Positions 13,872 through 37,898 of a stretch of DNA of 64,000 bases are shown here, in pieces. Numbering within the stretch: position 1 is the stretch's first letter; each line of letters opens with the position of its first letter. Source of the stretch: Chitinophaga pinensis. GTDB taxonomy: Bacteria > Bacteroidota > Bacteroidia > 2-12-FULL-35-15. A model generated the notes under the pieces. It was not told the origin of the DNA and made no database searches. It saw only the letters and a list, made by a program, of their open reading frames with translations. A program made the translations under genes and the position numbers. The stretch is from contig CAMCUO010000005.1 of NCBI GenBank assembly GCA_945879015.1, forward strand, positions 1,306 to 65,305, in the 5' to 3' direction.

Positions 13872-14999
13872 ATGGGTATTACTTTTTGTAATCCCCATTT
13901 TGTTTTTTACACCCATTCCATTATTGTGGTCGAACCGATAAACAAACAATTGCATTTCATCATTGGCATTGGACGCTCCGGAACGACCATTCTGAATAAG
14001 ATATTAAATTCTCATCCTTCTATTCACAGTTTACCAGAGGCAAATTTCCTTCTTTTTTTTCTGAACGATTATAAAAATGTAACTCGTTTTACAAAAGAGA
14101 ATATTGAGTTAATGTTTCAGCAGATTAAGATCTTTTCATTGTCGCATCCATTGGTTGGTTGGGAATTGGACATGGAAAATGCAAAGCAAAATCTTATAGA
14201 TATTGTTTCAAAAGGTGAATTGTCCTATGCTACACTTTGTAAAACTATTTATTCTGAAATTAAAGTAACAGGGAAAGACAAGTCAAACGCTACAATGCTG
14301 ATTGATAAAAATCCTGCTTTTACTTTATCAGTTGACCAATTGGAAAAACATTTTCCTGAATCAAAATTTATTTTGTTGGTTAGAGATTACAGAGCAAATG
14401 TATTGTCGAGAAAACAAAATGCTTATTTGAAATCACCTCTTGTGCCTTATAATGCTACTCGTTGGAGAGTTTTTAATCTGATTGCCAATAAGTTTTATCA
14501 AAAGCATAAGAGCAAAGTATTGTTATTGAGATATGAAGATTTGGTGAGCGAATACGATGCATCCATGAAAAAAGTGTTTGCCTTTTTAAATGTGAAAGAG
14601 GAAGATATGAAAGAAACGGACTTGTCGAAAGTGGATGTTTCAAAAATGGAAATTGCTAATGAGCATAAAAAATACTTTTCAAAAAAATATGAAGATTTAA
14701 GTAAGCCAATTAATACCAAGAGAGTAAATGCATGGCAAACAGAATTGAGCAAAGAGGATATTGCTGAGTGTGATACTATTTGTGCGAGTTTTGCTAAAGT
14801 GTTTGGTTATACAGAATTTACTCCTGTTCCTTTTTTCAAAAAAATCGGGATTATCTTAAAGAACATTTTTATTATTATTCCTTCTTATTTAGATATTAAA
14901 AAGGATCAGTTGTTGTACCACGTTTCTGCAAAAACAAAAATGAATGCTTTGATTAAGCGACACGAAACGCTTGGTTTTATTAAGCGTTCAGATTCGTAA
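13872..14999 (+). CDS. Sulfotransferase-family protein (PAPS-dependent).
   Basis: 5'-PSB P-loop IIGIGRSGTTILNKILNSHPS; about 370 aa; paralog of the adjacent convergent gene. Confidence 0.7.
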   Translation: MGITFCNPHFVFYTHSIIVVEPINKQLHFIIGIGRSGTTILNKILNSHPSIHSLPEANFLLFFLNDYKNVTRFTKENIELMFQQIKIFSLSHPLVGWELDMENAKQNLIDIVSKGELSYATLCKTIYSEIKVTGKDKSNATMLIDKNPAFTLSVDQLEKHFPESKFILLVRDYRANVLSRKQNAYLKSPLVPYNATRWRVFNLIANKFYQKHKSKVLLLRYEDLVSEYDASMKKVFAFLNVKEEDMKETDLSKVDVSKMEIANEHKKYFSKKYEDLSKPINTKRVNAWQTELSKEDIAECDTICASFAKVFGYTEFTPVPFFKKIGIILKNIFIIIPSYLDIKKDQLLYHVSAKTKMNALIKRHETLGFIKRSDS

Positions 15000-15014
15000 A
15001 TTATACTTAATTAT

Positions 15015-15045
15015 AACGTCACACTGAGCGGAGTCCAAGTGCGTT
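15015..15045. repeat. Short dispersed motif cgtcacactgagcggagtcCaagtgcg (GAGTCGAAG family).
   Basis: Near-identical to 3625-3652. Related copies at 2624-2650, 37201-37230 and 54955-54975. Confidence 0.4.
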
Positions 15046-15052
15046 ATCTTTA

Positions 15053-16096
15053 CTAAATCCGATTCTTCGAAGGAGAAGGCCTGAAGGCTAAAGGTAGCTT
15101 GTATTTTATCTTAATTAAAATTCCCCAGACTGAGGATTTCAAATAACAATAGTTGTAATATAGTTTATCGAAAATAGTAGTTTTTTTTGAAGGAATGTGT
15201 TTCGCATAACCGAATCTCAAAGCCAATTTCTCACAAGCAAAATCAAGCAAAGCAATTTCTTCCGATTTTAATTCATTCACATAAGCATTAACCCTTTCGG
15301 TATTTACCTTTTTTTCCAAATTACCGTGCATACGTTGAATTTTTTCATTCTTTTCCTTAGAAACATTTTCCACCGCATGCTTTTTTATCTCTTTTGAAAG
15401 TTCCTGAAAATTGAGCATTTGCTCGGTATACGGAACATGAATGTAGGAACAAAGCAATTGTAAGTGCTCTGTAGGATCACTTGCCAAGTCTTCATATTTA
15501 ATTAAATGATAGGGAATGTTTTTCGTGGCAAGACATTCAAAAATGCTTTCATAATAATAATTCCAATCGGCTGCCAACTTGTGAATTGGAACATTTTCAT
15601 CCGAATATTTTCTTCTCGATAAAATATTGTCTCTGTAATCTCTAACAATGACAATAAATTTTGCATCAGGAAAGATTTCTGAAATTTTATCAATGTGCAA
15701 AGAGTAAGATGGATTTTTATCGATTACCCAATTCACATTTTTCTTCTCTTTTTGAGATAGGGGGTAATTCAAATAAGCGAGCTTGCAAACATTTGCAAAA
15801 GTTTTATCCTTTAACTGAAGGATATCTTTCTTTAATTCCGGACCGGGTTTCCATATACTTATCACTCTGTTGAAATTTTGGTCGAACATATCAATAAATG
15901 CATCCACTACTTTCTCATCATTAAAATCCTGCTGATGAAAGGTGTGATAAGAGTGCATAATGAATTCGTTTTCTGGACTGGCAATAATCTCAGGATTGGA
16001 ATTGAGTATATTTGTGAGAAGAGTAGTGCCCGAGCGACCCATTCCTACAATAAAGGCAATTTTTGGTAAAGATGATAATGGTTTTAATTCAGTCAT
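15053..16096 (-). CDS. Sulfotransferase-family protein (PAPS-dependent), paralog.
   Basis: IVGMGRSGTTLLTNILNSNPEI P-loop; 347 aa; convergent with 13872-14999. Confidence 0.7.
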   Translation of the reverse strand: MTELKPLSSLPKIAFIVGMGRSGTTLLTNILNSNPEIIASPENEFIMHSYHTFHQQDFNDEKVVDAFIDMFDQNFNRVISIWKPGPELKKDILQLKDKTFANVCKLAYLNYPLSQKEKKNVNWVIDKNPSYSLHIDKISEIFPDAKFIVIVRDYRDNILSRRKYSDENVPIHKLAADWNYYYESIFECLATKNIPYHLIKYEDLASDPTEHLQLLCSYIHVPYTEQMLNFQELSKEIKKHAVENVSKEKNEKIQRMHGNLEKKVNTERVNAYVNELKSEEIALLDFACEKLALRFGYAKHIPSKKTTIFDKLYYNYCYLKSSVWGILIKIKYKLPLAFRPSPSKNRI

Positions 16097-16310: not shown

Positions 16311-18854
16311 ATGAGGCTAATTGACAAATATTTTCCTTTAATTTCAGTTACTTCAGAAAATCGGGAGGCGCTTTTCAATATCGATAGGCTTCGTTTTTTT
16401 AGTCTGGCTTTAGCGCAATTTATTTTAATTCTTTTTATTGTTACTCGCTATAATTTTGAAAAGTCATCAGGAATAATCGATTATGCTCCTTATGTTATTC
16501 TAGTATTTGCAATTTATAGTTTTATTGCCATCCGTTTTCGTCCAGCATTTCTATTTCTTGCGTGTGTTGCACTTGTTTATGCAGCATTTGGAATTCTGGC
16601 TGGAAGTTTTTTTATTCTTATCGGATTAGGTTTGATTTTAATTTGTCACTTACCTATAAAATATACTTATCGCTTTGTATTAATATTAGCTATTGCATTT
16701 CTTCTAGCTCTTTTTAGGACAGAATTTATTTACATTCCATGGATGACTATGACTGCTATGTACATGGCTCCATTGTTTATGTTCCGACTCATTATTTATT
16801 TGTATGAAATAAAGAACGGAGTGGTACCTGCAAATAAATGGCAAAGTATCAGTTACTTTTTTATGTTTCCAAATGTGTTCTTTCTCTTCTTTCCAATTAT
16901 CGATTACAAAACCTATATCAAAACACACCTCGATTCACCTGAAAAAGAAATATGGCAAAAAGGAATTCGATGGATGCTGCGTGGATTGATTCACATCATG
17001 TGTTATCGTTTGATCTGTTTTCATTTTTTAATCGGACCAGTTGAAGTAATTGACCTTCCAACAATGTTGCAATACATGGTGGTTAATTATTCTTTGATTA
17101 TCAGACTTTCTGGTGTATTTCATTTTATGATTGGTCTGGTTTGTATGTTTGGATTCAATCTTCCTCAAATATTTGACAATTATTTTACTGCTACCAGCTT
17201 TGTTGATTTGTGGAGAAGAATAAATATTTATTGGAGAAATTTCGTTCTAAAAATATTTTTCTACCCAACAATGTTTAGGTATAAAAAAATTCTGAAAAAG
17301 AATTTGTTGGCTTTTACCATGATGACGGTTTTCTTTATAACCTGGATAATGCATAGTTATCAGTTGTTTTGGATAACAGGTGTAGTTTCTGTTAGATCCA
17401 TAGATGTTATTTTTTGGATGGTGATTGGTGCATGTATAACTACAAATTCGGTAATTGTTGAAAAATATACTTTAGCTGAAGACAGAGTAGAAAAGCCTCA
17501 ATCGGAGTTTAAAAAGTATTTCATGAAAATAATCCGAATGATGGGAATGTTTCTTTTCATGTCAATTATGTGGTCGTTATGGAATACACGTACATTGGAA
17601 GATTGGCTTTTTATTGTTTCAAAAGGAAAACAAGTTGATTCGAAACAGTTACTTCTTATTTTTTCGGTTGTAATTGGAATTATTGGTTTAGGAATTCTTG
17701 TTCAGATGATGTTGAAAAATGTTAAGTTAAAACAGCTTATTAATAGGAAACCGCACGAAACAATTTTATTGACTTTGTCTACACTTACACTTCTAACATT
17801 ATTTTCTTTCAAAGAAATTCGTTCTAATATACCTTTATCAGTGCAACATTTGTACGATCAAATTTCTGATGGTTCAGCTAACAAACTTGAGAAAACAAAT
17901 GCTGAAGCAGGTTATTACGATAAATTGATTGAAGGCGAAGAGGGCAATACAATTGGCATAGGAGGAAGGTCATTAAAAAAGATGGTGAAGAAAAATCCTT
18001 ATACCAATGCTTATATTTATCAAAACAATATTGTAAACCGAAGAATGAAACCCAATCTCAACATTGTTGGTTCGGATCATAATTTTCAAAGTAATAGTTT
18101 TGGAATAAGAGATAAAGAGTATTCTATAAAAAAACCTCTTGGAACAAAACGTTTAGCATTGCTTGGCGGCTCTTATCAAATGGGTTCTGGTGTAAATAAC
18201 AATGAAGTTTTTGAAGCCATTGCAGAAGAAAGAATGAACAAAGAGTTGGTGGATACAAATTATAAAGCTTTTGAAATTTTCAATTTTGCTGCTGGTGGTT
18301 ATTATTTGTTGCAGCATGTTGAAATAGTTCATACATCTGTATTTCAATACGACATGGATGCCTTGGTATATTTTGCGCATACTGATGAAAGAGGCAAAGT
18401 GGTAAAAGATTTTACTACTATTATCAAGAAAGAATTGCCATTGAAATACCCATTTCTTCAGCAAATTGTCAAAGAAAGCGGCATTAAATCTTATATGAGT
18501 ATTTTACAAATAAGAGAATTACTGACTCCATATGCCGATACAATTATGAAATGGGGTTATAAGGAAATATATGAGCAATGTAAAAAGAACAATGTGGTTC
18601 CTGTTTGGGCCTATATGGAAACTACTACTGAGTTTGTTGATGATGCAGAATATAATGAGCTAAAAGCATACGCTGAATCATTAGGTTTTGTAACTTTGGA
18701 TTTACGCAATACCTATGGCAATATTGATAGAGTTGAAATTCAGATTTCGGATTTAAATACTCACCCAAATGTATTAGGACATCGATTGATTGCTGAAAGG
18801 TTTTATAAAGAGTTGAAATTAAAAAGAGATAGTATTTTTAGAATTGTTGAATAA
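16311..18854 (+). CDS. Fused MBOAT (DltB/AlgI-like) membrane O-acyltransferase plus C-terminal DltD/SGNH-like extracytoplasmic domain.
   Basis: 847 aa. The N-terminal roughly 450 aa is polytopic, with the MBOAT motif LWRRINIYWRNF (the WRRWHIS analog; its His is replaced by Asn) and the invariant His in TWIMHSY. After two more TMs, a roughly 340 aa domain has GGSYQMGSG (block I-like) and DLNTHPNVLGHRLIAE (SGNH block V, DxxH). Confidence 0.75.
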   Translation: MRLIDKYFPLISVTSENREALFNIDRLRFFSLALAQFILILFIVTRYNFEKSSGIIDYAPYVILVFAIYSFIAIRFRPAFLFLACVALVYAAFGILAGSFFILIGLGLILICHLPIKYTYRFVLILAIAFLLALFRTEFIYIPWMTMTAMYMAPLFMFRLIIYLYEIKNGVVPANKWQSISYFFMFPNVFFLFFPIIDYKTYIKTHLDSPEKEIWQKGIRWMLRGLIHIMCYRLICFHFLIGPVEVIDLPTMLQYMVVNYSLIIRLSGVFHFMIGLVCMFGFNLPQIFDNYFTATSFVDLWRRINIYWRNFVLKIFFYPTMFRYKKILKKNLLAFTMMTVFFITWIMHSYQLFWITGVVSVRSIDVIFWMVIGACITTNSVIVEKYTLAEDRVEKPQSEFKKYFMKIIRMMGMFLFMSIMWSLWNTRTLEDWLFIVSKGKQVDSKQLLLIFSVVIGIIGLGILVQMMLKNVKLKQLINRKPHETILLTLSTLTLLTLFSFKEIRSNIPLSVQHLYDQISDGSANKLEKTNAEAGYYDKLIEGEEGNTIGIGGRSLKKMVKKNPYTNAYIYQNNIVNRRMKPNLNIVGSDHNFQSNSFGIRDKEYSIKKPLGTKRLALLGGSYQMGSGVNNNEVFEAIAEERMNKELVDTNYKAFEIFNFAAGGYYLLQHVEIVHTSVFQYDMDALVYFAHTDERGKVVKDFTTIIKKELPLKYPFLQQIVKESGIKSYMSILQIRELLTPYADTIMKWGYKEIYEQCKKNNVVPVWAYMETTTEFVDDAEYNELKAYAESLGFVTLDLRNTYGNIDRVEIQISDLNTHPNVLGHRLIAERFYKELKLKRDSIFRIVE

Positions 18855-18888: not shown

Positions 18889-19152
18889 ATGCGTGCAGAC
18901 ATTAACGAAATAAAAGAAACAGTAAAGGCGTTCGTTAATAAACGTTTTTTAAAAAATGCTGAAGGGAAAGAATTAAACTATTCAACTCCTCTCATTTCTG
19001 GTGGTATTATTGATTCGATACTTGCTATGCAGTTGGTTGTTTTCCTAGAACAAACCTACAGGTTTGAATTTCAAGCACACGAAGTTGATAAAGATAATTT
19101 AGATAACATCGATATCATTGCAGGGTTTGTTGTAAAGAAGTTGAATGCATAA
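18889..19152 (+). CDS. D-alanyl-carrier-protein-like (DltC-like) small carrier protein.
   Basis: 87 aa. GGIIDSILAMQLVVFLEQ has the phosphopantetheine Ser in a DltC-like context. Its stop overlaps the next start (ATGCATAA). Confidence 0.75.
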   Translation: MRADINEIKETVKAFVNKRFLKNAEGKELNYSTPLISGGIIDSILAMQLVVFLEQTYRFEFQAHEVDKDNLDNIDIIAGFVVKKLNA

Positions 19153-20599
19153 GGTAAATAAGCTATATCAGCTTCTTGAAAATTCGGCAGAACAGTTTCC
19201 GGATAATACTGCTTTAGTTTTGCAAGAAAAAAAGATTAGCTATCAACAATTAGATTCATTAGCTAATAAAATAAAACAAGCTCTTCATTCTATAAACATT
19301 TCTGAAGGAAATCGTATCGCTATTTGCTCTCCTAAATCCATTGAATTTGTCGCCTCTATTTTCGGAATATTAAAAGCTGGTGCTGCTTATGTTCCTGTTG
19401 ATTATAATTCACCTATTGAACGCAATAATTTTATTATTGAAAATTGTGAAGTAGCTGCAATTATTATTACTAAAGACTTGTTAGAAAATTTTAAAAATAA
19501 TTTTACGTTTTTCGCAGATATTGGAATTGATTTAGTTTTAGCAAAAAGCAATAAGGTAACATTAAAAAAATCTTCTGAAGATTTATCCTATATTCTATAT
19601 ACTTCAGGCTCAACGGGAAATCCAAAGGGTGTAATTTATACCAATGCTGGAGCACTTGAATTTATCAATTGGAGTTCAAATACTTTTTCTCCCACTTCGA
19701 GTGATTGTTTTTCGTCGCATGCGCCTTTTCATTTCGATCTTTCTATTTTTGATTTATATGTTTCTATAAAGCATGGAGCAACTTTGGTTCTGATAAAAGA
19801 AGAAGTGGCGAAACAACCTATGCTATTGGCTCAATTAATTTCAGAACAAAAAATTAGTATTTGGTATTCTACTCCTTCAATTCTAATAATGCTTTCGGAA
19901 TATGGCAAAATGGAAAAGTATAAGTATGATAGTTTGAGATTGATATTATTTGCTGGTGAAGTTTTCCCAATTGTCAAATTAAATACATTAAAGAAAAAAG
20001 TTAAAACATCGGTTTTTTATAATCTTTATGGACCAACAGAAACAAATGTTTGTACGTATTATCAATTGCCTGAAAATATTGAAACAAATATTCCGATTGG
20101 AAAAGTATGCGAACATTATCAAGCCTGTGTTGTTGGTGATGAGCTTTTAATTAGCGGAAAAGGTGTGATGTTGGGTTATTGGAATGTTCCTGAAAAAGAT
20201 AATTTTTGGAAGGACCAAGAAAATAGATTTTGGTACAAAACGGGTGATTTGGTAGATGTTGCAGAGAGTGGAGATTATATCTTTAAAGGCAGAAGAGATA
20301 GAATGGTGAAGCGCAATGGTTATAGAATAGAATTGGATGAAATAGAAACAGGATTAAGTAAACATCCCGATATTGTTATTGCGGCTGTTGTCAGTAAGAA
20401 CAATGAAGAAGAGCAAATGATTATTTCTGCCTTTGTTGTTTTAAGAAATACTGAGCAAAAATCAGTCATAAAAATGAAGGAATATTGTATGAATCACTTA
20501 CCTTCGTATATGGTTCCCAACGACTTTATTTTTGTTGAGGATTTGCCACAAACATCAAGCAATAAAGTGGATTATCAGAAATTAAAACAATTAGCCTAA
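19145..20599 (+). CDS. Stand-alone adenylation enzyme (ANL superfamily), DltA-like aminoacyl-carrier-protein ligase.
   Basis: Motifs: YTSGSTGNPKGV (A3), FHFDLSIFDLY (A4; Asp rather than Glu after the pocket, as in DltA), YGPTE (A5), YKTGD (A7), GRRDRMVKRNGYRIELDEIE (A8), NKVD (A10). About 484 aa; no C or T domain. Confidence 0.8.
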   Translation: MHKVNKLYQLLENSAEQFPDNTALVLQEKKISYQQLDSLANKIKQALHSINISEGNRIAICSPKSIEFVASIFGILKAGAAYVPVDYNSPIERNNFIIENCEVAAIIITKDLLENFKNNFTFFADIGIDLVLAKSNKVTLKKSSEDLSYILYTSGSTGNPKGVIYTNAGALEFINWSSNTFSPTSSDCFSSHAPFHFDLSIFDLYVSIKHGATLVLIKEEVAKQPMLLAQLISEQKISIWYSTPSILIMLSEYGKMEKYKYDSLRLILFAGEVFPIVKLNTLKKKVKTSVFYNLYGPTETNVCTYYQLPENIETNIPIGKVCEHYQACVVGDELLISGKGVMLGYWNVPEKDNFWKDQENRFWYKTGDLVDVAESGDYIFKGRRDRMVKRNGYRIELDEIETGLSKHPDIVIAAVVSKNNEEEQMIISAFVVLRNTEQKSVIKMKEYCMNHLPSYMVPNDFIFVEDLPQTSSNKVDYQKLKQLA

Positions 20600-21747
20600 T
20601 GGAACTTTCCTTATCAACAGAGCAAATGCTTATCCAGGAAAACATTATTGGTTTTGCTCAAAAAGAATTGAATAATAATATTATTGAGCGCGATAAAAAC
20701 CAGCAGTTTTTACCTGAATTATGGAAAAAATGTGCGGAACAAAAACTTACTGGATTACCTGTTGAGGAAAAATTTGGTGGTGCTGGTTTAGATCCTATTT
20801 CTTCTGTTTTAGCATTGGAAGCATTGGGTTATGGCTCCGATGACGGTGGTTTGAATTTTTCTATATGTGCACATTTATTGGCTTGTGTTGTTCCTATCTG
20901 GAAATACGGAAACGAAAATCAAAAGAAAAAATACTTGCCTGATTTATGTAATGGAAAAAAAATTGCTGTAAATGCAATGACAGAAAGCGAATCGGGTTCG
21001 GATGTTTTTAATATTAAAACAACTGCTAAAAAGCAGGATAATGGATTTGTGATAAACGGAACAAAAACGTTTTGTTCAAATGGTCCAGTTGGAGATATAA
21101 TTTTAGTTTATGCGCTTACTGATGAAAGCAAAGGGTATTATGGTGGAATTACAGCTTTCATTGTAGATAAAAATGCAAAAGGATTTAAAGTCGGTCAGAA
21201 ATATGAGAAAATGGGTTTGCGCAGTTCGGGTATTTCTGAAGTAATATTTGAAAATGTTTTTGTTTCAGAAGAAGATATGGTTGGAGGATTTGGTGGTGGA
21301 GCAACGGTGTTTAATCATTCGATGGAGTGGGAGCGAACTGGTATGGCAGCTTTGCATGTTGGAACCATGCGCAAGTTGCTTGAAAAATCAATTGATTATG
21401 TTCAAACACGCAAATCAGGAAATGAAGTAATCGGTAAAAAACAAGCTATCGCTCATCGCATTGCAAATATGAAAGTTCAATTGGAAGCAGCTTCTTTGCT
21501 TACTTATAAAGCTGCATTAGGATTAGAAAAAAATAAAGAGAACATGATTCATGCAGCTTCAGCTAAACTTTTTGTGAGTGAAGCATTTGTTGCTGCTGCG
21601 ATTGATACCATGCAACTTTTTGGTGGAAATGGTTATATGACAGAATACGGTATTGAAAGAATTGTGCGAGATGCTCTTGGAAGTACTGTTTATTCTGGCA
21701 CATCCGATATTCAACGTAACATCATTTCTCGTTTGCTTGGATTGTAA
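20599..21747 (+). CDS. Acyl-CoA dehydrogenase-fold flavoprotein, atypical (candidate acyl-carrier-protein dehydrogenase).
   Basis: 382 aa ACAD fold. The C-terminal signature reads RDALGSTVYSGTSDIQRNIISR; the catalytic Glu of the canonical YEGT is replaced by Ser. Start overlaps the adenylase stop (TAATG). Confidence 0.8.
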   Translation: MELSLSTEQMLIQENIIGFAQKELNNNIIERDKNQQFLPELWKKCAEQKLTGLPVEEKFGGAGLDPISSVLALEALGYGSDDGGLNFSICAHLLACVVPIWKYGNENQKKKYLPDLCNGKKIAVNAMTESESGSDVFNIKTTAKKQDNGFVINGTKTFCSNGPVGDIILVYALTDESKGYYGGITAFIVDKNAKGFKVGQKYEKMGLRSSGISEVIFENVFVSEEDMVGGFGGGATVFNHSMEWERTGMAALHVGTMRKLLEKSIDYVQTRKSGNEVIGKKQAIAHRIANMKVQLEAASLLTYKAALGLEKNKENMIHAASAKLFVSEAFVAAAIDTMQLFGGNGYMTEYGIERIVRDALGSTVYSGTSDIQRNIISRLLGL

Positions 21748-21790
21748 AATATTTAGTATTTTAGCGCTAGTTCTCGATACTACTAAATTT

Positions 21791-23179
21791 ATGAAACTAT
21801 ACGATGTCATCATTATTGGCGGGGGGCCAACAGGTTCAACTGCTGCGACACTTTTAGCTCAAAAAGGGTTAAGTGTTTTGTTGTTAGAAAAAGAATCCTT
21901 CCCAAGAGAACATGTTGGTGAATCATTGATTCCGATTTCTTATGATCAATTGAATAAGTTGGGATTGGTTGAAGAAATGAAAAAAATTTCTAGTCGTAAA
22001 CCTGGAGTTAGTTTTGATGCAAATGATGGTGTGAACCGATCTTTATGGTGTTTTAAAAGTGTTATTAAAGATGAATCATATTTAGCTTTTCATGTTATCC
22101 GTTCGGCATTTGATAAGCTTTTGTTGGATAATAGTAAAAAAGTGGGAGCTGAAGTGAGAGAGCAATACATGGTGAAAAATGTAATTCTTGATAGAGCAGA
22201 TAAAATAGTAGAAGTGCATGCAACAAATGCAGAAGGCAAAGAAGAAAAATTTGAATCCAAATTTATTGTTGACGCAAGTGGACTAAGTACTTTTCTAGGA
22301 AGAAAATTGGGAGTTAAAAAAGCATATGCGGGTTTAGATAGAGTGGCTACTTGGTCGCACTGGACAAACACCGAATTTGATACAAATTTAAAAGAAGGCG
22401 TTATTAAAATTGTTTATTTGGGTGGAGAGAAAAAAGGATGGATATGGGTTATTCCTGTGAGCAAAGAGCATTTGAGCATTGGTGTGGTTGTGAATAACAG
22501 TCATGTGAAAGAAAAGAAAAAGCAATTTCAAGATTCAGAAGATTGGAAAAAAGATTATTATTTGCAGGAACTACAAGAATGTTATTTGTATAAAACGGTA
22601 TTGAAAAACGCTAAGATGGAGCATAAAGTTGCCATGGCTGGTGACTACTCTTATTACTGCGAAAAAAAGTATGGTGAAAATTATGCTTTAGTTGGAGATG
22701 CTGGTGCATTTTTAGATCCTATTTTTTCAAGCGGAATTTTTGTTGGAATGAAGAGTGCTGAATTGGTAGCGGATGGTATTGAAGCGAACCTGAAAGGAAA
22801 AGGGAATGCTGAAATGGACAAAGCTTATGTTAATATCAATGGTGCTGTCAACTTACTTGAAAAATTTATTCGCTTGTTTTATACTCCTGAAGCACTTGAT
22901 TTTTCTAAGATTGGAACTCCAGAAGGACTTTTAATGTTTAAAAAATACGAACAAACATATTCCGTTTTCCATTACTTATTAGCGGGTGATTTTTTCAATA
23001 ATTATGAAAAGTACAGTGAATTTATTGATACCATACGTGATGAGAAGACTATGGCCAAATTCGAAAATTTAATTGATCACGCGCACAGCGCCTTACCTAA
23101 AAGTTGCGGAGAAGATTTTGAAGAAATGTATGGTGAAATGACGCATAAAATTGAGTTTGATCATAAGGCGTTTGAGTAA
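21791..23179 (+). CDS. Flavin-dependent halogenase (PltA/PrnC-like clade).
   Basis: GxGxxG IIIGGGPTGSTAA; FPREHVGESLIP; WxWxIP as GWIWVIPV (22436-22459); FxxPxxSxG as FLDPIFSSGI. The ORF-track N-terminal extension from 21653 overlaps the ACAD gene and is rejected. Confidence 0.75.
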   Translation: MKLYDVIIIGGGPTGSTAATLLAQKGLSVLLLEKESFPREHVGESLIPISYDQLNKLGLVEEMKKISSRKPGVSFDANDGVNRSLWCFKSVIKDESYLAFHVIRSAFDKLLLDNSKKVGAEVREQYMVKNVILDRADKIVEVHATNAEGKEEKFESKFIVDASGLSTFLGRKLGVKKAYAGLDRVATWSHWTNTEFDTNLKEGVIKIVYLGGEKKGWIWVIPVSKEHLSIGVVVNNSHVKEKKKQFQDSEDWKKDYYLQELQECYLYKTVLKNAKMEHKVAMAGDYSYYCEKKYGENYALVGDAGAFLDPIFSSGIFVGMKSAELVADGIEANLKGKGNAEMDKAYVNINGAVNLLEKFIRLFYTPEALDFSKIGTPEGLLMFKKYEQTYSVFHYLLAGDFFNNYEKYSEFIDTIRDEKTMAKFENLIDHAHSALPKSCGEDFEEMYGEMTHKIEFDHKAFE

Positions 23180-23201
23180 ATAGCATTGTGCACCCATTCG
23201 T

Positions 23202-23325
23202 GAGAGATTGCCACATCCCGCGAAAATGCGGGACTCGCAATGACGCTCTGTTATGTGGTTATCGCTTTTAGAACGTCATTGCGAGGCACGACCCGAGCAT
23301 TCGGGGCGGGATGTGGCAATCTCTC
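23202..23325. repeat. About 125 bp composite palindromic element, same family as 7764-7893 but in R-spacer-L order.
   Basis: gagagattgccacatcccgcgaaaatgcgggactcgcaatgacgctct, then a 23 bp spacer, then acgtcattgcgaggcacgacccgagcattcggggcgggatgtggcaatctctc. Confidence 0.7.
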
Positions 23326-23349
23326 CAATATTGCGAAGACCAGTCACCC

Positions 23350-24063
23350 TCAAAAAAACCAAGCACTAACATTCATCACAATCTTCCTTCCCCAAGAAGG
23401 AACATGTTTTAAAAAATAAAAATTCTGAAATTTTAATTGCCACCAAAGTGTTGCATTTACTTTAGCACAAATTTGTTTTTTGTCATTTTCAAATTCTTCA
23501 CGTAAAATATCAATAATCAAAATCCACCGTTCATTTTCTGTTTTGTTCCATACTTCATGTTCGTATGCATCACAGAAGGCAAAGAGTTTTCCATTTTTCC
23601 ATGAAATTTGCTCATTTCCAACTCTCATTCCAATTTCCGGTAAGCTATTTTTGCAGTTTAAAGTAAAGTGACATCGATACATCACATTGCTATCACCATG
23701 ATGTGGTTTTATGGAAGTATTTGCATTTAAAATGGAAAACGAAGCATGTGTCATTGCTGGAATGCTTTCGATTATTCTTGTCGTCTCCGGACATTTTTCA
23801 CAATTTTCTTTTTTCTTTTTGCTCCAAACATACAATGGAAAAATAGTCCAGTTCTCTGCTTTGCTGGCAAGTGATTTATTCATGTAAGGAATAATATTTT
23901 TATCCTTTGATTCAACAAGTTTGGTGAATTCTTTTAAAATTAAATCGTAATTGTCTTCAAAAAGAGCCACCCATTTTTTGTCATGGATATCAAAAAAATT
24001 AGGCTCTGGGCCTTTGTAAGCGCTATTCTCTGCAAACGAATACCATTTCTTTGAATTTCCCAT
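23350..24063 (-). CDS. Aspartyl/asparaginyl beta-hydroxylase-family 2OG/Fe(II) oxygenase, paralog 1.
   Basis: 237 aa. HHGDSNVMYRCHFTL, WKNGKLFAFCDAYEHEVWN, ILIIDI; matches the AspH core (H..R.H..L / FDDSFEHE.WN). Confidence 0.65.
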   Translation of the reverse strand: MGNSKKWYSFAENSAYKGPEPNFFDIHDKKWVALFEDNYDLILKEFTKLVESKDKNIIPYMNKSLASKAENWTIFPLYVWSKKKKENCEKCPETTRIIESIPAMTHASFSILNANTSIKPHHGDSNVMYRCHFTLNCKNSLPEIGMRVGNEQISWKNGKLFAFCDAYEHEVWNKTENERWILIIDILREEFENDKKQICAKVNATLWWQLKFQNFYFLKHVPSWGRKIVMNVSAWFF

Positions 24064-24806
24064 TAGTAAACTTTAAATAGATTAACACTTACTATAGCCA
24101 GTCGTGTAAATGGATGTAAACATTTTGCTAAAAACTTAATTGTTCTAGCAGATAATTTTTTAAGAAAAGTATATTTCTGCCATCTCTTTTGTAAAAAAAG
24201 CGAAGTCATTACTGTTGCGCAAATTTTTTCTTTTTCATTTTTAAATTCATCACGCACAACATCCACCACAAAAATAAAACGATCTTTCTCCGAATTATTA
24301 TACGCTTCATGTTGATAGGCATCCATAAACATCAACCATTTCCCATTTTTCCATGGACGAACTTCCTCTTTAACTTTAAAGGCACATTCTGGAAGTCCAG
24401 CCGGAATTTCCAGTCCTAAATGACATCTATAAATAGTATTTGTATCTCCGCAATGTGGATGAATTTTACTTTTTGCTTCTAATAAATTAAAAGAGGAAGA
24501 AGTAATTTCTGGATATTTTTGAATAATGGAATAAGTTATTGGAAAATATTTCTGATTTTTAAACTGTTGAATTCCCCATGTTCTCAGTGGAATTGTTTTC
24601 CAGCTATTTTCACGCGAAACCATTGATTTTATAAAATAACCAATGAGGTTGTCGCTTTTAAGATATTCTTTGAGTTCTTTATAAATGGCTTCGTAATTTT
24701 CTTCAAACTCTTTTGTCCAGCGAAATTCTTCTGGTTTAGTAAAAGGAGCTTCCGTTCCATGATATTCGTCATTTACGTTATATATGTTGTACCAAGCCTT
24801 TTGCAT
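24063..24806 (-). CDS. Aspartyl/asparaginyl beta-hydroxylase-family oxygenase, paralog 2.
   Basis: 247 aa. HPHCGDTNTIYRCHLGL, WKNGKWLMFMDAYQHEAYN, FIFVVDV. Its stop overlaps paralog 1's start. Confidence 0.65.
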   Translation of the reverse strand: MQKAWYNIYNVNDEYHGTEAPFTKPEEFRWTKEFEENYEAIYKELKEYLKSDNLIGYFIKSMVSRENSWKTIPLRTWGIQQFKNQKYFPITYSIIQKYPEITSSSFNLLEAKSKIHPHCGDTNTIYRCHLGLEIPAGLPECAFKVKEEVRPWKNGKWLMFMDAYQHEAYNNSEKDRFIFVVDVVRDEFKNEKEKICATVMTSLFLQKRWQKYTFLKKLSARTIKFLAKCLHPFTRLAIVSVNLFKVY

Positions 24807-24850
24807 CCACTCTTTATTTATTATATTTGTTTTAGTAAAAACTCTAGCAA

Positions 24851-25537
24851 ATGTCTGAATTCGAATTTACAAATAAAAATCCTAAGTTCTTTTATGATTC
24901 TGCTCAGTTTCCTTTTTTGAAGCCATTGCTTGATAATGTTGGGGTTATTCGAAAAGAGTTGCAAGATATTATTGCTTCAGGAAAGGAAAATCAATGGATG
25001 AATACGTTTCCACATTATGTAAAATCTGACGAGCACAAAGCTTGGAAGGTATTTTCATTTTTGTTCTTTAATATGAAGCTTCCCAACAACGCAAAATTAT
25101 GTCCGAAAACGGCTGAACTCATTTATTCTATTACAGAGATTCTTTCTTGTGATTATTCTTATATGAATCCAGGAACTCATGTGCTGCCTCACAAAGGTTA
25201 TTCACGAATGGTTTTACGTTGTCACATTGCTTTGATTGTTCCAGATGAGGAACTTTGTGCTTTACGTGTTGGAAATGAAATTAAACATTGGAAAGAAGGC
25301 GAACTTATAATTTTTGATGATTCATTTGAACATGAAGCATGGAATAGATCCGACAAAAGAAGAGTTGTTTTAATGTTTGATATTCCAAATCCCCTTTGGG
25401 GATATACTGCTCATGAAATTTCAAAATATAAAATTGATAAAATTGATGATCCTTTTCTTTTATCGATGGCTCCCAAAGATGAATGGATAAAAGCGTTTGA
25501 AAAAGGAATTTTTCCTTTGGAGAGTTTTAAAGATTAA
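24851..25537 (+). CDS. Aspartyl/asparaginyl beta-hydroxylase-family oxygenase, paralog 3 (most canonical).
   Basis: 228 aa. LPHKGYSRMVLRCHIALIVP, WKEGELIIFDDSFEHEAWNRSDKRRVVLMFDI. Near-textbook AspH C-terminal core. Confidence 0.7.
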   Translation: MSEFEFTNKNPKFFYDSAQFPFLKPLLDNVGVIRKELQDIIASGKENQWMNTFPHYVKSDEHKAWKVFSFLFFNMKLPNNAKLCPKTAELIYSITEILSCDYSYMNPGTHVLPHKGYSRMVLRCHIALIVPDEELCALRVGNEIKHWKEGELIIFDDSFEHEAWNRSDKRRVVLMFDIPNPLWGYTAHEISKYKIDKIDDPFLLSMAPKDEWIKAFEKGIFPLESFKD

Positions 25538-26584: not shown

Positions 26585-27196
26585 TTAGAGCAAAGCATTT
26601 ATCGCCTCCATATTCTCATCACAAACTTCACCGCTAAATTTTAATTCCGCATTTTGATCGCTCAAAATTGCAGCAGCTTTATTTAGTTTTGCACCAATTG
26701 TTTTGTAGTCATCCACGTGCAATTCGTATAATTGATTGTCCACATGCTCTTGATCTGACAGTAATTTGTAGCCAAGTAACTTGTTGTAATGAATGGCTCT
26801 ATCATTGTCGCTCAATATTCTGATACGAGAAATTTTGCTGACATTTAATTTTAAAAACATAAAATTCAAAAGACACAATGTTGCAAAAACGGCTGCAAAG
26901 GAGCTGATGTAGTCTTTGTCACTAATAAAAATTCCTCCTTCGCCAAATCCTAAGCCTACATCATAATTTTTTGCATTGATGAGTCCAACTTGTTTGCCTT
27001 CAAATTCAATAATAAAATAATAATTGTTTCTGTTGTTTACGGATTTGAACCAAATTTTTTGAGCTTCAGGTGTAATGAAATTACGGTATTCCATGTAATT
27101 AGCAATATCACTTTGGTTTCTCCAATTACGAACCATCTCAATATCTTTTTCTTGCACTCTTACAAGCCGAACGCCATATTGTTCAAGAACTAACAT
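26585..27196 (-). CDS. GNAT-family N-acyltransferase (RimJ/RimL-like).
   Basis: 203 aa. Lies at the 3' end of the KASIII operon; its start overlaps the GT2 stop. Confidence 0.55.
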   Translation of the reverse strand: MLVLEQYGVRLVRVQEKDIEMVRNWRNQSDIANYMEYRNFITPEAQKIWFKSVNNRNNYYFIIEFEGKQVGLINAKNYDVGLGFGEGGIFISDKDYISSFAAVFATLCLLNFMFLKLNVSKISRIRILSDNDRAIHYNKLLGYKLLSDQEHVDNQLYELHVDDYKTIGAKLNKAAAILSDQNAELKFSGEVCDENMEAINALL

Positions 27197-28107
27197 ATGA
27201 TTTCGTCTTCGTTATAGGAAGGCGCATTGTTCAAAGCTTTTAACATCTGACTTATATATTGTGCGACAATTCCAATGCAGAAAATAATTATACCTGTAGA
27301 AAAAAGAATACTTACAATCAAAGAAGTATAACCTTCCACATCAATTTTTAAGTAAAACTTTTTAATGATGTAAAAAATTCCAATAATGAAATTGATAGTA
27401 GCTAAACTAAATCCAATATAGGTTACCAATTTTAATGGTAGAGTAGATGAAAACATGATGATGGTAGAAGTCATCTTAAACAATCCTGCTACTTTGTAAC
27501 GTTGCTTATGTATGTAATCAGGATTTGCATTTACATCTACAAAGGCTAATTTTTTTGTGTACCATAAACACAATTCATCAATAAAAACAAATTGTTTGTG
27601 ATTGTGTACCAACTTATCAGTCAGTGATTTTTTTAATAATCTAAAACTGCTTCCTTTTCCTTTTTGTGGGCCTTCCAGCTTTGCTAGTATTTTATATGCT
27701 CCAGAAAAAATTCCTCTAAAAAAAGGTTGATTTTGTTTTGGATACAATCCATAAACCAGATCAGCATTTGTATTTTTTTGATTATCGATTAGCTTTTGAA
27801 TTTCTGAAGGGTGAACTTCTAAATCATCATCAATGGTAATAACAAAATCTCCTTTCGCATGTTTGAAGCCACAAACAGTAGCTCCGTGCTGACCGAAATT
27901 TTTACTTAAGCGAATAATGGTTGTGTTGGATGAACTTGCTTTTATTTTTTTTAATACTTCCCAGCTATTGTCGGTACTACAATCATCCACAAAAATAATT
28001 TCGTAGGAATATTTGTTTTCAAAAAATGAAACAATGCTTTGGTGCACCTTCTCAAGTGCATTTTCAGAACCATAAACTGGAATAACTATGCTATAGTTTG
28101 TGCTCAT
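27190..28107 (-). CDS. Family-2 glycosyltransferase, polyprenyl-phosphate sugar synthase type (ArnC/GtrB/DPM1-like).
   Basis: SIVIPVYGSENALEKV...YEIIFVDDCSTDNS (DxD). Two C-terminal TM helices; about 305 aa, the ArnC architecture. Confidence 0.75.
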   Translation of the reverse strand: MSTNYSIVIPVYGSENALEKVHQSIVSFFENKYSYEIIFVDDCSTDNSWEVLKKIKASSSNTTIIRLSKNFGQHGATVCGFKHAKGDFVITIDDDLEVHPSEIQKLIDNQKNTNADLVYGLYPKQNQPFFRGIFSGAYKILAKLEGPQKGKGSSFRLLKKSLTDKLVHNHKQFVFIDELCLWYTKKLAFVDVNANPDYIHKQRYKVAGLFKMTSTIIMFSSTLPLKLVTYIGFSLATINFIIGIFYIIKKFYLKIDVEGYTSLIVSILFSTGIIIFCIGIVAQYISQMLKALNNAPSYNEDEIIC

Positions 28108-30129: not shown

Positions 30130-30165
30130 AAATGTAAATATATTAAAATATACAATTCAAGATGA

Positions 30166-34041: not shown

Positions 34042-34113
34042 TTAAAAATCGAGTGAGGATTTGAGTAAGGAAAAACCTGAAGCAACAAATTTAAGCTCTA
34101 AAAAAAACAAACA

Positions 34114-36845: not shown

Positions 36846-36877
36846 TAAATTAACATCGTTCTTTATAAAACAAAACT

Positions 36878-37897: not shown

Positions 37898-37898
37898 A

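What the first reader, a model, noticed from the sequence alone, without database searches (positions are those of the whole stretch)
18889..23179. The Dlt-like module is operonically fused to a halopyrrole-type tailoring pair: an ACAD-like dehydrogenase lacking the YEGT glutamate, and a flavin-dependent halogenase
Carrier protein, adenylase, ACAD-like enzyme and flavin-dependent halogenase (with both halogenase signature motifs) lie in exactly this order with overlapping stop/start codons (ATGCATAA; TAATG). This arrangement is the hallmark of the pyoluteorin, prodigiosin, clorobiocin and pentabromopseudilin cassettes (PltF/PltL/PltE/PltA). In those, prolyl-S-carrier is oxidised to pyrrolyl-S-carrier and then halogenated. 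The ACAD-like protein has Ser in place of the catalytic Glu (YSGTSDIQ instead of YEGTxxIQ), consistent with a non-canonical carrier-tethered substrate. Combining such a cassette with a DltB/DltD-like exporter rather than a PKS or NRPS is not a described architecture. It suggests a halogenated, or dehydro-, aminoacyl or pyrrolyl group is transferred onto a cell-envelope acceptor. Because the A-domain looks DltA-like (suggesting D-Ala or another small amino acid), the substrate could instead be alanine-derived (dehydroalanyl or pyruvoyl).
Basis: partly seen in the sequence, partly recalled or inferred. Interest (0 to 1): 0.92.

Follow-up and report, generated by a model that had tools for sequence, protein, structure and literature searches.

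The report
Envelope acyltransferase fed by halopyrrole cassette
A five-gene operon in an uncultured Bacteroidota genome joins a proline-to-(halo)pyrrole carrier-protein cassette to a fused membrane acyltransferase of the teichoic-acid D-alanylation type, and its four-gene core recurs in at least eleven bacterial phyla, which points to an undescribed way of decorating cell-surface polymers.

Summary
On the + strand lie an 847-aa membrane protein (16311-18854), a carrier protein (18889-19152), an adenylase (19145-20599), an ACAD-like protein (20599-21747) and a flavin-dependent halogenase (21791-23179). The first two junctions of the cassette overlap. The halogenase follows a 43-nt spacer.

- **Adenylase:** it is PltF-like, not DltA-like. 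Its specificity code, DLFYLALVCK, matches PltF at 9 of 10 positions, so the substrate is proline.
- **ACAD:** it belongs to the prolyl-carrier-protein dehydrogenases (AnaB, Bmp3, PigA). The Ser-for-Glu change is that family's hallmark, not an oddity.
- **Halogenase:** it has the catalytic Lys and all signature motifs, and it groups with carrier-dependent halogenases.

In 45 of 83 genome loci examined, from at least eleven phyla, the membrane protein sits with carrier protein, Pro-adenylase and ACAD. The order is the same in 33 of them. Halogenases join the module in 16 loci. The flanking genes elsewhere are polysaccharide genes.

The most likely function is transfer of a pyrrole-2-carboxyl group, halogenated here, to an extracytoplasmic glycan. 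I found no published description. The chemistry is inferred, not shown.

The parts
16311..18854 (+). 847-aa fused MBOAT-SGNH acyltransferase. It has a TM bundle (about residues 1-520), a disordered linker (522-560) carrying the invariant Gly534-Tyr535-Tyr536, and an SGNH domain (561-847).
18889..19152 (+). 87-aa type II peptidyl carrier protein. The phosphopantetheine site is Ser43, in GGIIDS.
   Evidence: Best solved relatives are 6cxt chain A (taken to be the Bmp1 carrier domain; 4.6e-7), PltL and PigG. DltC scores only E 0.8. PP-binding is weak. The GG(I/L)xDS motif is conserved in 59 loci.
19145..20599 (+). 484-aa stand-alone adenylation enzyme, predicted L-proline--[carrier protein] ligase.
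   Evidence: PltF 6o6e scores 2.9e-80 and PigI 4.4e-67, against 7e-58 for the best DltA. The pocket fragment is closest to PltF at 1.5e-31. Codes: window DLFYLALVCK, PltF DLLYLALVCK, DltA DLMVFCTVAK.
20599..21747 (+). 382-aa prolyl-carrier-protein dehydrogenase (ACAD fold, with Ser366 replacing the catalytic Glu).
   Evidence: PDB: AnaB 3.4e-95, the ACAD chain of 6cxt (taken to be Bmp3) 8.1e-87, PigA 9.6e-86. Ordinary ACADs score 2.9e-75 or worse. NCBIfam: PigA 418 bits, RedW 381 bits, both below the equivalog cut-offs. The YSGTS motif is near universal in the module's ACADs.
21791..23179 (+). 462-aa flavin-dependent halogenase of the carrier-protein-dependent (PltA, Bmp2, Mpy16, CndH, CmlS) group.
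   Evidence: Lys70, GxGxxG, WxWxIP and FxDPxFSxG are all present.
23201..23327 (.). GC-rich nested palindrome between the halogenase stop and the convergent hydroxylase gene. It probably acts as a bidirectional terminator and marks the 3' end of the operon.
   Evidence: RNA fold -77.4 kcal/mol, z -9.1. Its core motif recurs as an inverted pair at 7768-7889.
13872..16096 (.). Two divergent NoeE-like sulfotransferases (13872-14999 +, 15053-16096 -), conserved next to the module in its closest relatives.
23350..25537 (.). Three OlsC/LpxO-like Asp/Asn beta-hydroxylase-family paralogs (23350-24063 -, 24063-24806 -, 24851-25537 +), conserved with the module in Bacteroidota.
26585..31179 (-). PseH-like GNAT, ArnC/PgfS-like polyprenyl-phosphate GT2, FabG-like SDR, FabH-like KASIII, a 78-aa ACP-like ORF (GWSSM) and a second KASIII. 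This is a glycan or lipid modification set conserved with the module in Bacteroidota.

Best explanation
This is a carrier-protein-dependent envelope acylation system. It works like the Dlt pathway but delivers a proline-derived heteroaromatic acyl group instead of D-alanine. The proposed steps are as follows.

1. The adenylase loads L-proline onto Ser43 of the 87-aa carrier protein.
2. The ACAD-like flavoenzyme oxidises prolyl-S-carrier, most likely by four electrons, to pyrrolyl-2-carboxyl-S-carrier.
3. In this Bacteroidota version the flavin-dependent halogenase chlorinates or brominates the tethered pyrrole.
4. The loaded carrier docks on the cytoplasmic face of the MBOAT domain of the 847-aa protein. 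His348, with Asn305, catalyses transfer of the acyl group across the membrane. The likely first acceptor is Tyr535 or Tyr536 in the flexible linker, which would be the counterpart of the FxYxxF acyl-shuttle tyrosine of DltX and PatA.
5. The fused extracytoplasmic SGNH domain takes the acyl group on Ser621 (with His818) and esterifies a hydroxyl of a surface glycan or glycolipid.

Shown by computation: the family and fold assignments, the proline code, the catalytic residues and the conserved synteny. Inferred: four-electron rather than two-electron oxidation, halogenation on the carrier, the tyrosine shuttle, and the identity of the acceptor.
For: - **Proline:** the code DLFYLALVCK matches PltF at 9 of 10 positions and DltA at 4 of 10. 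Of 51 module adenylases, 24 have exactly the PltF code and 13 have the window's code.
- **Carrier protein:** it is closest to 6cxt chain A (taken to be the Bmp1 carrier domain), PltL and PigG.
- **ACAD:** it is closest to AnaB, the ACAD chain of 6cxt (taken to be Bmp3) and PigA, and YSGTS is conserved.
- **Halogenase:** motifs and Lys are intact. Halogenases of two different clades sit at the module in Bacteroidota, Chloroflexota, Planctomycetota, Gemmatimonadota, Binatia and a deltaproteobacterium. That argues for a halogenatable, electron-rich tethered substrate, which a pyrrole is.
- **Membrane protein:** MBOAT plus SGNH fold, with invariant Asn305, His348, Gly-Tyr-Tyr 534-536, Ser621, Asn658 and His818. 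The Gly-Tyr-Tyr lies in the only disordered stretch of the model.
- **Synteny:** a carrier-protein gene lies beside the membrane protein in 59 of 84 loci. The full four-gene module is present in 45 loci, in the same order and strand in 33, and typically spans about 5.5 kb. No other gene is universally linked.
- **Neighbours:** outside Bacteroidota these are Wzy, GT4, GT2, UDP-glucose dehydrogenase and polysaccharide deacetylase genes. Here they are NoeE-like sulfotransferases, an ArnC-like GT2 and a PseH-like GNAT.
- **Mechanistic precedent:** the Dlt and PatAB tyrosine shuttle (PMC12148441).
Against: - No biochemistry exists for any member.
- The ACAD is as far from the four-electron enzyme Bmp3 (median 41% identity) as from the two-electron enzyme AnaB (median 44%). 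The oxidation state of the product is therefore open.
- The linker motif GYY(D/E)xL does not match FxYxxF at position 1.
- The SGNH acid residue three positions before His818 is not conserved.
- Pfam MBOAT and a family profile searched against PDB sequences do not detect DltB. The MBOAT assignment rests on fold and motifs.
- In one close relative (L088), the carrier protein, adenylase, ACAD and halogenase sit next to the hydroxylase-GNAT-GT2 block with no membrane protein upstream.
- More distant halogenase homologs (42-46% identity) occur without the module.
- No flavin reductase gene lies in the operon.
Confidence: 0.6

Rival explanations
1. The oxidation stops at two electrons, as in AnaB. 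A pyrroline-carboxyl (dehydroprolyl) group rather than a pyrrole is passed to the membrane protein, and the halogenase acts on something else or after transfer.
For: AnaB is the single best solved relative of the ACAD at 3.4e-95. The module's ACADs are slightly closer to AnaB than to Bmp3. About two thirds of modules have no halogenase.
Against: The NCBIfam models for the four-electron enzymes PigA and RedW are the top family hits. Carrier-dependent halogenases have been recruited to the module repeatedly, directly after the ACAD, and they need an aromatic or enol-like substrate. A cyclic imine thioester is hydrolytically labile, which makes it a poor shuttle cargo.
Confidence: 0.15
2. The cassette makes a soluble halopyrrole metabolite. 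The MBOAT-SGNH protein serves only to export and hydrolyse it, or is a functionally unrelated neighbour.
For: SGNH domains are often hydrolases. Free pyrrole-2-carboxylic acid and halopyrroles are known bacterial products (own knowledge). L088 keeps the cassette without the adjacent membrane protein.
Against: The four-gene synteny across at least eleven phyla, with gaps of tens of bases, argues for one machine. No PKS, NRPS condensation domain or thioesterase lies nearby. Known bacterial MBOAT/SGNH pairs are transferases onto polymers (PMC12148441). Polysaccharide genes flank the module elsewhere.
Confidence: 0.12
3. In the Bacteroidota cluster, the (halo)pyrrolyl-carrier feeds the cytoplasmic KASIII, ACP, SDR, GNAT and GT2 pathway, for example as a starter or acyl donor as in CloN/CouN-type transfer. 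The membrane protein acylates with something else.
For: The hydroxylases, GNAT, GT2, SDR, KASIII and ACP co-occur with the cassette in all close Bacteroidota relatives, including L088, which has no membrane-protein gene in the 5 kb upstream of the cassette.
Against: These accessory genes are absent from the module in all other phyla, whereas the membrane protein is the constant partner. Both KASIII proteins have the ordinary Cys-His-Asn condensing triad and pass the FabH subfamily cut-off. They lie on the opposite strand in a separate transcription unit.
Confidence: 0.08
4. This is a Dlt- or Alm-like aminoacylation with D-Ala, Gly or another small amino acid, in which the ACAD makes a dehydroalanyl or pyruvoyl group.
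For: The NCBIfam DltA models hit at 284-298 bits. The membrane protein is DltB-like and DltD-like by fold.
Against: The DltA hits are far below their cut-offs of 476 and 560 bits. PltF and PigI outscore every DltA. The pocket code is 9 of 10 to PltF against 4 of 10 to DltA. The ACAD and the carrier protein belong to the prolyl systems.
Confidence: 0.03

Closest known systems
Dlt pathway for teichoic-acid D-alanylation (DltA, DltC, DltB, DltX, DltD)
   Different: The cargo is proline-derived and is oxidised, and here halogenated, on the carrier before transfer. The MBOAT and SGNH parts are one polypeptide. There is no DltX microprotein; an internal invariant Gly-Tyr-Tyr loop may replace it. The hosts are diderm bacteria without teichoic acids. 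Sequence similarity to DltB is undetectable.
Halopyrrole cassettes: pyoluteorin PltF/PltL/PltE/PltA; Bmp1-4; marinopyrrole Mpy; prodigiosin PigI/PigG/PigA
   Same: The same four protein families, with the same proline code, the same Ser-for-Glu dehydrogenase and the same class of halogenase.
   Different: Those pathways hand the pyrrolyl-carrier to a PKS, an NRPS or a thioesterase to make diffusible metabolites. Here the constant partner is a membrane acyltransferase and no PKS or NRPS is present. The ACAD falls below the PigA and RedW equivalog cut-offs and is about 40-44% identical to AnaB and Bmp3, so it forms a separate subfamily.
PatA/PatB (peptidoglycan O-acetylation) and AlgI/AlgJ/AlgX (alginate O-acetylation)
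   Same: MBOAT plus SGNH logic in Gram-negative bacteria, a polymer acceptor outside the cytoplasmic membrane, and a tyrosine shuttle after extra C-terminal TM helices.
   Different: Those systems use acetyl-CoA, have no carrier protein (stated in PMC12148441) and keep the MBOAT and SGNH parts as separate proteins.
Clorobiocin and coumermycin pyrrolyl transfer (CloN3/4/5 with CloN1/2/7)
   Same: A prolyl-derived pyrrole-2-carboxyl group made on a carrier protein ends up as an ester on a sugar hydroxyl (own knowledge).
   Different: That transfer is cytoplasmic, uses soluble acyltransferases and targets a small-molecule antibiotic. No MBOAT is involved.

Membership tests
Prolyl-carrier-protein dehydrogenases (PigA, RedW, PltE, Bmp3, AnaB) | Three-domain ACAD fold, with the best similarity to characterised members rather than to acyl-CoA dehydrogenases | tested here: met
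   Pfam N, M and C domains are all present. AnaB 3.4e-95, the ACAD chain of 6cxt (taken to be Bmp3) 8.1e-87 and PigA 9.6e-86 rank above all acyl-CoA dehydrogenases.
Prolyl-carrier-protein dehydrogenases (PigA, RedW, PltE, Bmp3, AnaB) | Catalytic Glu of Y-E-G-T replaced by Ser (YSGTS or FSGTS) | tested here: met
   The window has VYSGTSDIQR. AnaB has FYSGTSEIQR and Bmp3 has LFSGTSDIQR. The motif is near universal in 44 module ACADs.
Prolyl-carrier-protein dehydrogenases (PigA, RedW, PltE, Bmp3, AnaB) | Reaches the NCBIfam equivalog score for PigA or RedW | tested here: not met
   418 bits against a cut-off of 500, and 381 against 650. It is a relative and a separate subfamily, not an ortholog of either.
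Prolyl-carrier-protein dehydrogenases (PigA, RedW, PltE, Bmp3, AnaB) | Oxidises prolyl-S-carrier (two or four electrons) | not testable with these tools
   It is equally distant from AnaB and Bmp3. An enzyme assay is needed.
Type II L-proline adenylating enzymes (PltF, PigI, RedM) | Stachelhaus pocket code D-L-(L/F)-Y-x-A-x-V-C-K | tested here: met
   The window has DLFYLALVCK, PltF has DLLYLALVCK and PigI has DLFYIAWVCK.
Type II L-proline adenylating enzymes (PltF, PigI, RedM) | Stand-alone A domain next to a stand-alone PCP related to PltL, PigG and Bmp1 | tested here: met
Flavin-dependent halogenases, carrier-protein-dependent group (PltA, Bmp2, Mpy16, CndH) | GxGxxG, WxWxIP and FxxPxxSxG motifs and the catalytic Lys | tested here: met
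   GGGPTG, GWIWVIP, FLDPIFSSG and Lys70 aligned to CndH Lys76.
Flavin-dependent halogenases, carrier-protein-dependent group (PltA, Bmp2, Mpy16, CndH) | Groups with this clade rather than with Trp halogenases or non-halogenating flavoproteins | tested here: met
   The top ten PDB hits are 8zop, CndH, Mpy16, CmlS, Bmp2, PltA, ChlB4 and relatives. PltM and the tetracycline halogenase score 54 bits, and geranylgeranyl reductase and FixC about 46 bits. No Trp halogenase is listed. No full tree was built.
Flavin-dependent halogenases, carrier-protein-dependent group (PltA, Bmp2, Mpy16, CndH) | Acts on pyrrolyl-S-carrier | not testable with these tools
   The scores do not separate the pyrrole-specific enzymes (Mpy16 151, Bmp2 146, PltA 146 bits) from the tyrosyl-specific CndH (157 bits).
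MBOAT superfamily (DltB, AlgI, PatA, HHAT, PORCN) | MBOAT fold | tested here: met
MBOAT superfamily (DltB, AlgI, PatA, HHAT, PORCN) | Invariant catalytic His, with an upstream Asn, His or Asp | tested here: inconclusive
   His348 and Asn305 (within WRRINIYW) are invariant in 31 sequences and the motifs are conserved in 84, with typical 43-residue spacing. Residue-level superposition on DltB His336 could not be inspected.
MBOAT superfamily (DltB, AlgI, PatA, HHAT, PORCN) | Matches the Pfam MBOAT model PF03062 | tested here: not met
   None of 31 family members matches. A family profile searched against PDB sequences does not reach DltB. Some homologs carry JGI's DltB or AlgI label.
SGNH/GDSL acyltransferases and hydrolases (DltD, PatB, AlgX) | SGNH fold with block I Ser, block III Asn and block V His | tested here: met
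SGNH/GDSL acyltransferases and hydrolases (DltD, PatB, AlgX) | Asp three residues before the catalytic His (DxxH) | tested here: not met
   The window has SDLNTHPN. Most relatives have WDxHPN, with the Asp two residues before the His. The enzyme may use a Ser-His dyad or a differently placed acid.
Dlt system | D-alanine-specific DltA | tested here: not met
   The pocket code matches DltA at 4 of 10 positions. The DltA models score 284-298 bits against cut-offs of 476 and 560.
Dlt system | DltX microprotein with a C-terminal FxYxxF acyl-shuttle motif | tested here: inconclusive
   The neighbour clustering found no gene conserved with the module apart from carrier protein, adenylase and ACAD, but it covered only ORFs of at least 80 aa, so a DltX-sized microprotein was not actually searched for. 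An invariant GYY(D/E)xL lies in the disordered linker at 522-560. It resembles the motif but does not match it.

The most novel reading that the evidence does not exclude
A previously unrecognised and phylogenetically widespread class of cell-envelope modification. In it, surface polysaccharides or glycolipids are esterified with pyrrole-2-carboxylate made from proline on a carrier protein. The acyl group is delivered by the first known carrier-protein-dependent MBOAT outside the Dlt system, which is also a natural MBOAT-SGNH fusion. In Bacteroidota and a few other lineages the pyrrole is halogenated first, which would give the first enzymatically halogenated cell-surface polymer.
Probability: 0.5. 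Interest if true: 0.9.

Novelty: new variant of a known kind. Interest (0 to 1): 0.8.

Why it matters
- **Paradigm:** the current view, stated in PMC12148441 (2025), is that only the Dlt pathway couples an MBOAT/SGNH pair to a carrier protein, that all other such pathways use acyl-CoA, and that the MBOAT and SGNH parts are separate proteins. This locus and its relatives break all three points.
- **Scale:** the fused membrane protein has 1,487 representatives of 50%-identity clusters at E 1e-30 or better. About half of the genome loci I examined carry the proline cassette.
- **Natural-product chemistry:** the textbook pyrrole and halopyrrole cassette would gain a second role, decorating the cell surface as well as making antibiotics.
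- **Ecology:** the module occurs in wastewater, soil and marine lineages, including Accumulibacter, Thauera relatives, Gemmatimonadota and Saprospiraceae. An aromatic, possibly halogenated ester on EPS or LPS could affect phage and predator recognition, hydrophobicity and floc formation.
- **Testability:** the prediction can be tested directly. Cultured carriers exist, namely Pseudothauera rhizosphaerae CC-YHH848 (four-gene module, L060) and Phaeodactylibacter xiamenensis KD52 (membrane protein with a halogenase nearby, L049).

Tried and rejected
- **AFDB fold library.** It was not available.
- **Promoter and terminator scan.** It found fewer promoter-like sites than the shuffled controls and no intergenic terminator, so it was uninformative. 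The tool's sigma-70 model does not suit Bacteroidota.
- **Literature.** Searches on the code string, on MBOAT with pyrrole, prolyl or halogenase, on MBOAT with SGNH, carrier protein and ACAD, on pyrrole-2-carboxyl with polysaccharide, on Bacteroidetes with halogenase and prolyl, and on PDB entry 8zop found no description of this architecture. The library covers open-access papers only.
- **OlsH/OlsI lead.** The carrier protein's best NCBIfam hit, the ornithine-lipid ACP for OlsH/OlsI, is below its cut-off (75 bits against 130). The OlsH/OlsI paper never uses the terms 'acyl carrier protein', MBOAT or DltB, so I dropped it.
- **Conserved small genes.** Several apparent small genes conserved around the module turned out to be shadow ORFs inside the core genes of high-GC genomes.
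- **AnaB versus Bmp3.** Identity to these two enzymes does not discriminate two-electron from four-electron chemistry.
- **D-Ala or dehydroalanyl reading.** Rejected on the specificity code.
- **Routine beta-oxidation ACAD.** Rejected on PDB ranking and motif.

Full report
**What is in the sequence.** Five co-directional ORFs lie on the + strand between 16311 and 23179.

| Gene | Coordinates | Product |
|---|---|---|
| Membrane protein | 16311-18854 | 847 aa |
| Carrier protein | 18889-19152 | 87 aa |
| Adenylase | 19145-20599 | 484 aa |
| ACAD-like protein | 20599-21747 | 382 aa |
| FAD enzyme (halogenase) | 21791-23179 | 462 aa |

- The carrier/adenylase junction is ATGCATAA, an 8-nt overlap. 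The adenylase/ACAD junction is TAATG, a 1-nt overlap.
- The halogenase does not overlap the ACAD. It starts at ATG 21791, 43 nt after the ACAD stop.
- The TTG start at 21653 in the ORF list is a longest-ORF artefact. The 462-aa product from 21791 is the exact sequence on record in the protein collection.
- A 34-nt gap separates the membrane protein from the carrier protein.
- Downstream, the 170-nt gap before a convergent gene is filled by a GC-rich nested palindrome (-77 kcal/mol, z -9.1).
- The window has about 33% GC and carries a ribosomal-protein operon, so the locus is chromosomal, in a Bacteroidota MAG.

**The cassette proteins.**

*Adenylase.*
- It reaches the amino-acid-adenylation-domain model exactly at its cut-off. 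It hits the DltA models only far below theirs, at 284-298 bits against 476 and 560.
- Among solved single-domain enzymes, PltF (2.9e-80) and PigI (4.4e-67), both L-proline--carrier ligases, outrank every DltA, the best of which scores 7e-58.
- A 133-residue fragment spanning the substrate pocket is closest to PltF at 1.5e-31.
- From that alignment I read the ten specificity positions. The window gives DLFYLALVCK, PltF DLLYLALVCK, PigI DLFYIAWVCK and DltA DLMVFCTVAK.
- The enzyme is therefore a proline activator.

*Carrier protein.* Its best solved relatives are 6cxt chain A (4.6e-7), PltL and PigG. DltC reaches only E 0.8. I take 6cxt chain A to be the Bmp1 carrier domain; PDB labels it 'Alpha/beta hydrolase fold protein'.

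*ACAD.*
- Its best solved relatives are AnaB (3.4e-95), the ACAD chain of 6cxt (8.1e-87) and PigA (9.6e-86). All rank ahead of every acyl-CoA dehydrogenase. I take the 6cxt chain to be Bmp3; PDB labels it 'Butyryl-CoA dehydrogenase'.
- Its best NCBIfam models are PigA (418 bits) and RedW (381 bits). Both are below the equivalog cut-offs.
- The Ser in YSGTSDIQ is shared by AnaB (YSGTSEIQ) and Bmp3 (FSGTSDIQ). It is the signature of this family rather than an anomaly.

*Halogenase.*
- The ten best solved relatives are all halogenases: 8zop, CndH, Mpy16, CmlS, Bmp2, PltA, ChlB4 and others. Non-halogenating flavoproteins score about 100 bits or more lower, and no tryptophan halogenase is listed.
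- Lys70 aligns with the catalytic Lys76 of CndH. GGGPTG, GWIWVIP and FLDPIFSSG are all present.

**The membrane protein.**
- Sequence methods fail on it. The homolog search scored 1,727 proteins at E 0.001 or better among its 8,000 candidates, and JGI labels a few of them DltB or AlgI.
- An AlphaFold2 model built from a 31-sequence alignment is confident (pLDDT 84, pTM 0.77). It shows a helical membrane bundle, a disordered stretch at 522-560 and an alpha/beta domain at 561-847.
- Foldseek's best hit is DltB (E 2.9e-7), followed by HHAT and PORCN. The C-terminal domain matches GDSL esterases.
- Invariant residues fit both active sites:
  - Asn305 in WRRINIYW and His348, the MBOAT Asn/His pair;
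  - Ser621 in GGS, Asn658 and His818 in HPN, which are SGNH blocks I, III and V.
- Gly534-Tyr535-Tyr536 is invariant in all 84 family members examined. It lies in the only disordered stretch of the model.
- In Dlt and PatAB, a tyrosine in a mobile FxYxxF motif carries the acyl group from the MBOAT to the SGNH serine (PMC12148441). The GYY(D/E)xL loop is the obvious candidate for that role, although it does not match the published motif at position 1.

**Conservation.** This is the strongest evidence.
- Relatives of the membrane protein at 79%, 50% and 44% identity have the same five genes in the same order, although their flanks differ.
- A scan of one genome per species returned 80 loci. Together with the four loci fetched earlier, this makes 84 loci (83 from genomes and MAGs, one from a JGI metagenome).
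  - 59 have the carrier-protein gene.
  - 45 have carrier protein, adenylase and ACAD together.
  - 33 have the identical order and strand, and the module typically spans about 5.5 kb.
- The module's hosts span Bacteroidota, Ignavibacteria, Rhodothermales, Gemmatimonadota, Beta- and Gammaproteobacteria (including Accumulibacter, a Thauera relative, Rubrivivax and Woeseia), Acidobacteriota, Chloroflexota, Planctomycetota, Verrucomicrobiota, Hydrogenedentota and Binatia.
- The adenylases of these modules carry the exact PltF code in 24 of 51 cases and the window's code in 13. The rest differ at one or two positions, apart from two outliers: one partial sequence and one weak (23%) hit with a different code.
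- The ACADs almost all keep YSGTS.
- After removing shadow ORFs, no other gene is universally linked.
- The fused protein family has 1,487 representatives of 50%-identity clusters at E 1e-30 or better.

**The halogenase is an accessory.**
- It is present in 16 of the 84 loci. All 16 keep the halogenase motifs, except that one partial ORF (L046) lacks the N-terminal part carrying GxGxxG and the Lys.
- They fall into two sequence types. One has RKPGV around the Lys and occurs in Bacteroidota and one Anaerolineales MAG. The other has KYGAxW, as in Mpy16, and occurs in Chloroflexota, Planctomycetota and a deltaproteobacterium.
- Independent recruitment of carrier-type halogenases to the same module argues that the tethered intermediate is an electron-rich ring, which a pyrrole is.
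- Seen from the halogenase side, metagenomic orthologs at 59% identity or more lie in the module wherever the contig is long enough.
- One exception is L088, where T9SS cargo genes replace the membrane protein upstream.
- Homologs at 42-46% identity are sometimes found elsewhere.

**Acceptor.**
- Outside Bacteroidota the module is often embedded among Wzy, GT4, GT2, UDP-glucose dehydrogenase and polysaccharide deacetylase genes. Family members that lack the cassette sit in sulfated-polysaccharide loci.
- In this window and its close relatives the module is flanked by:
  - two NoeE-like sulfotransferases;
  - three OlsC/LpxO-like hydroxylases;
  - a PseH-like GNAT;
  - an ArnC/PgfS-like polyprenyl-phosphate GT2;
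  - a FabG-like SDR;
  - two canonical KASIII enzymes;
  - an ACP-like ORF.
- All of these are envelope glycan or lipid modification functions.
- The acceptor is therefore most likely a surface glycan or glycolipid. Its identity is not determined.

**Mechanism and uncertainty.**
- The best-supported reading has five steps:
  1. proline is loaded on the carrier;
  2. it is oxidised to pyrrolyl-2-carboxyl-S-carrier;
  3. it is halogenated, in this lineage;
  4. the MBOAT domain passes it to the linker tyrosine;
  5. the SGNH domain passes it to an extracytoplasmic hydroxyl.
- The family assignments, the substrate code, the catalytic residues, the fold and the synteny are computed results.
- The oxidation state is inferred. 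The ACAD is as far from AnaB, a two-electron enzyme, as from Bmp3, a four-electron enzyme.
- On-carrier halogenation, the tyrosine shuttle and the acceptor are also inferred.
- Overall confidence is 0.6. The main rival, a two-electron dehydroprolyl cargo, stands at 0.15.

**Novelty.**
- Each part belongs to a known family. The architecture is a new variant.
- The 2025 mechanistic paper on MBOAT-SGNH systems states that pathways other than Dlt lack a carrier protein because they use acyl-CoA. It describes the MBOAT and SGNH parts as separate proteins.
- Seven literature searches found no paper linking an MBOAT to a prolyl or pyrrolyl carrier cassette. The library is open-access only, so absence is not proof.

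Noticed in passing
window 23201-23327 and 7768-7889: A GC-rich nested palindromic element of about 125 nt, with outer arms GAGAGATTGCCACATCCCGC / GCGGGATGTGGCAATCTCTC and inner arms around CGTCATTGCGAG. It folds at -77 kcal/mol (z -9.1). Its core occurs as an inverted pair at a second intergenic site (4 hits against 0.01 expected). It looks like a REP- or MITE-like repeat doubling as a bidirectional terminator.
   Followed up: partly
window 23350-25537: Three tandem paralogs of the Asp/Asn beta-hydroxylase family (228-247 aa). Their closest curated models are OlsC (ornithine-lipid acyl 2-hydroxylase) and LpxO, both below cut-off. They are conserved next to the module throughout the Bacteroidota clade. 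Their substrate is unknown.
   Followed up: partly
window 13872-16096: Two divergently oriented sulfotransferases, weakly NoeE-like (Sulfotransfer_3), with hydrophobic C-terminal tails. They are conserved immediately upstream of the module in the closest relatives but absent in L007 and L010.
   Followed up: partly
window 26585-31179 (- strand): A PseH-like GNAT, an ArnC/PgfS-like GT2, a FabG-like SDR, a KASIII, a 78-aa ACP-like ORF (GWSSM, no family hit) and a second KASIII. This looks like a set for making an N-(3-hydroxyacyl) amino sugar on a polyprenyl phosphate. Both KASIII proteins keep the Cys-His-Asn triad.
   Followed up: partly
window 25603-26526 (- strand): A DUF808 gene sits between the third hydroxylase and the GNAT in this window but is absent at that position in L001, L002 and the other relatives. 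It is a lineage-specific insertion into the cluster.
   Followed up: no
L088 79-5048: In one close relative (halogenase 83% identical), the carrier protein, adenylase, ACAD and halogenase cassette is preceded by two T9SS-sorted secreted proteins (Por_Secre_tail) instead of the MBOAT-SGNH gene and the sulfotransferases. The membrane protein may be encoded elsewhere in that genome.
   Followed up: partly
window 18889-19152: The carrier protein's best curated family hit is the recently defined ACP associated with the planctomycete OlsH/OlsI ornithine-lipid pathway (75 bits, cut-off 130). This outranks DltC and AsbD. The OlsH/OlsI paper itself never uses the term 'acyl carrier protein'.
   Followed up: partly
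window 13441-13851: A 136-aa protein with a signal or lipoprotein-like N-terminus and no family hit. It is conserved (61-73%) just upstream of the first sulfotransferase in L001, L005 and L008 but absent in L002.
   Followed up: no
window 33640-52814; 55114-55188: A run of short co-directional ORFs whose sizes and arrangement suggest a ribosomal-protein and elongation-factor operon (not scanned against any family library), and a tRNA-Arg(CCG). These suggest that the cluster is chromosomal.
   Followed up: no
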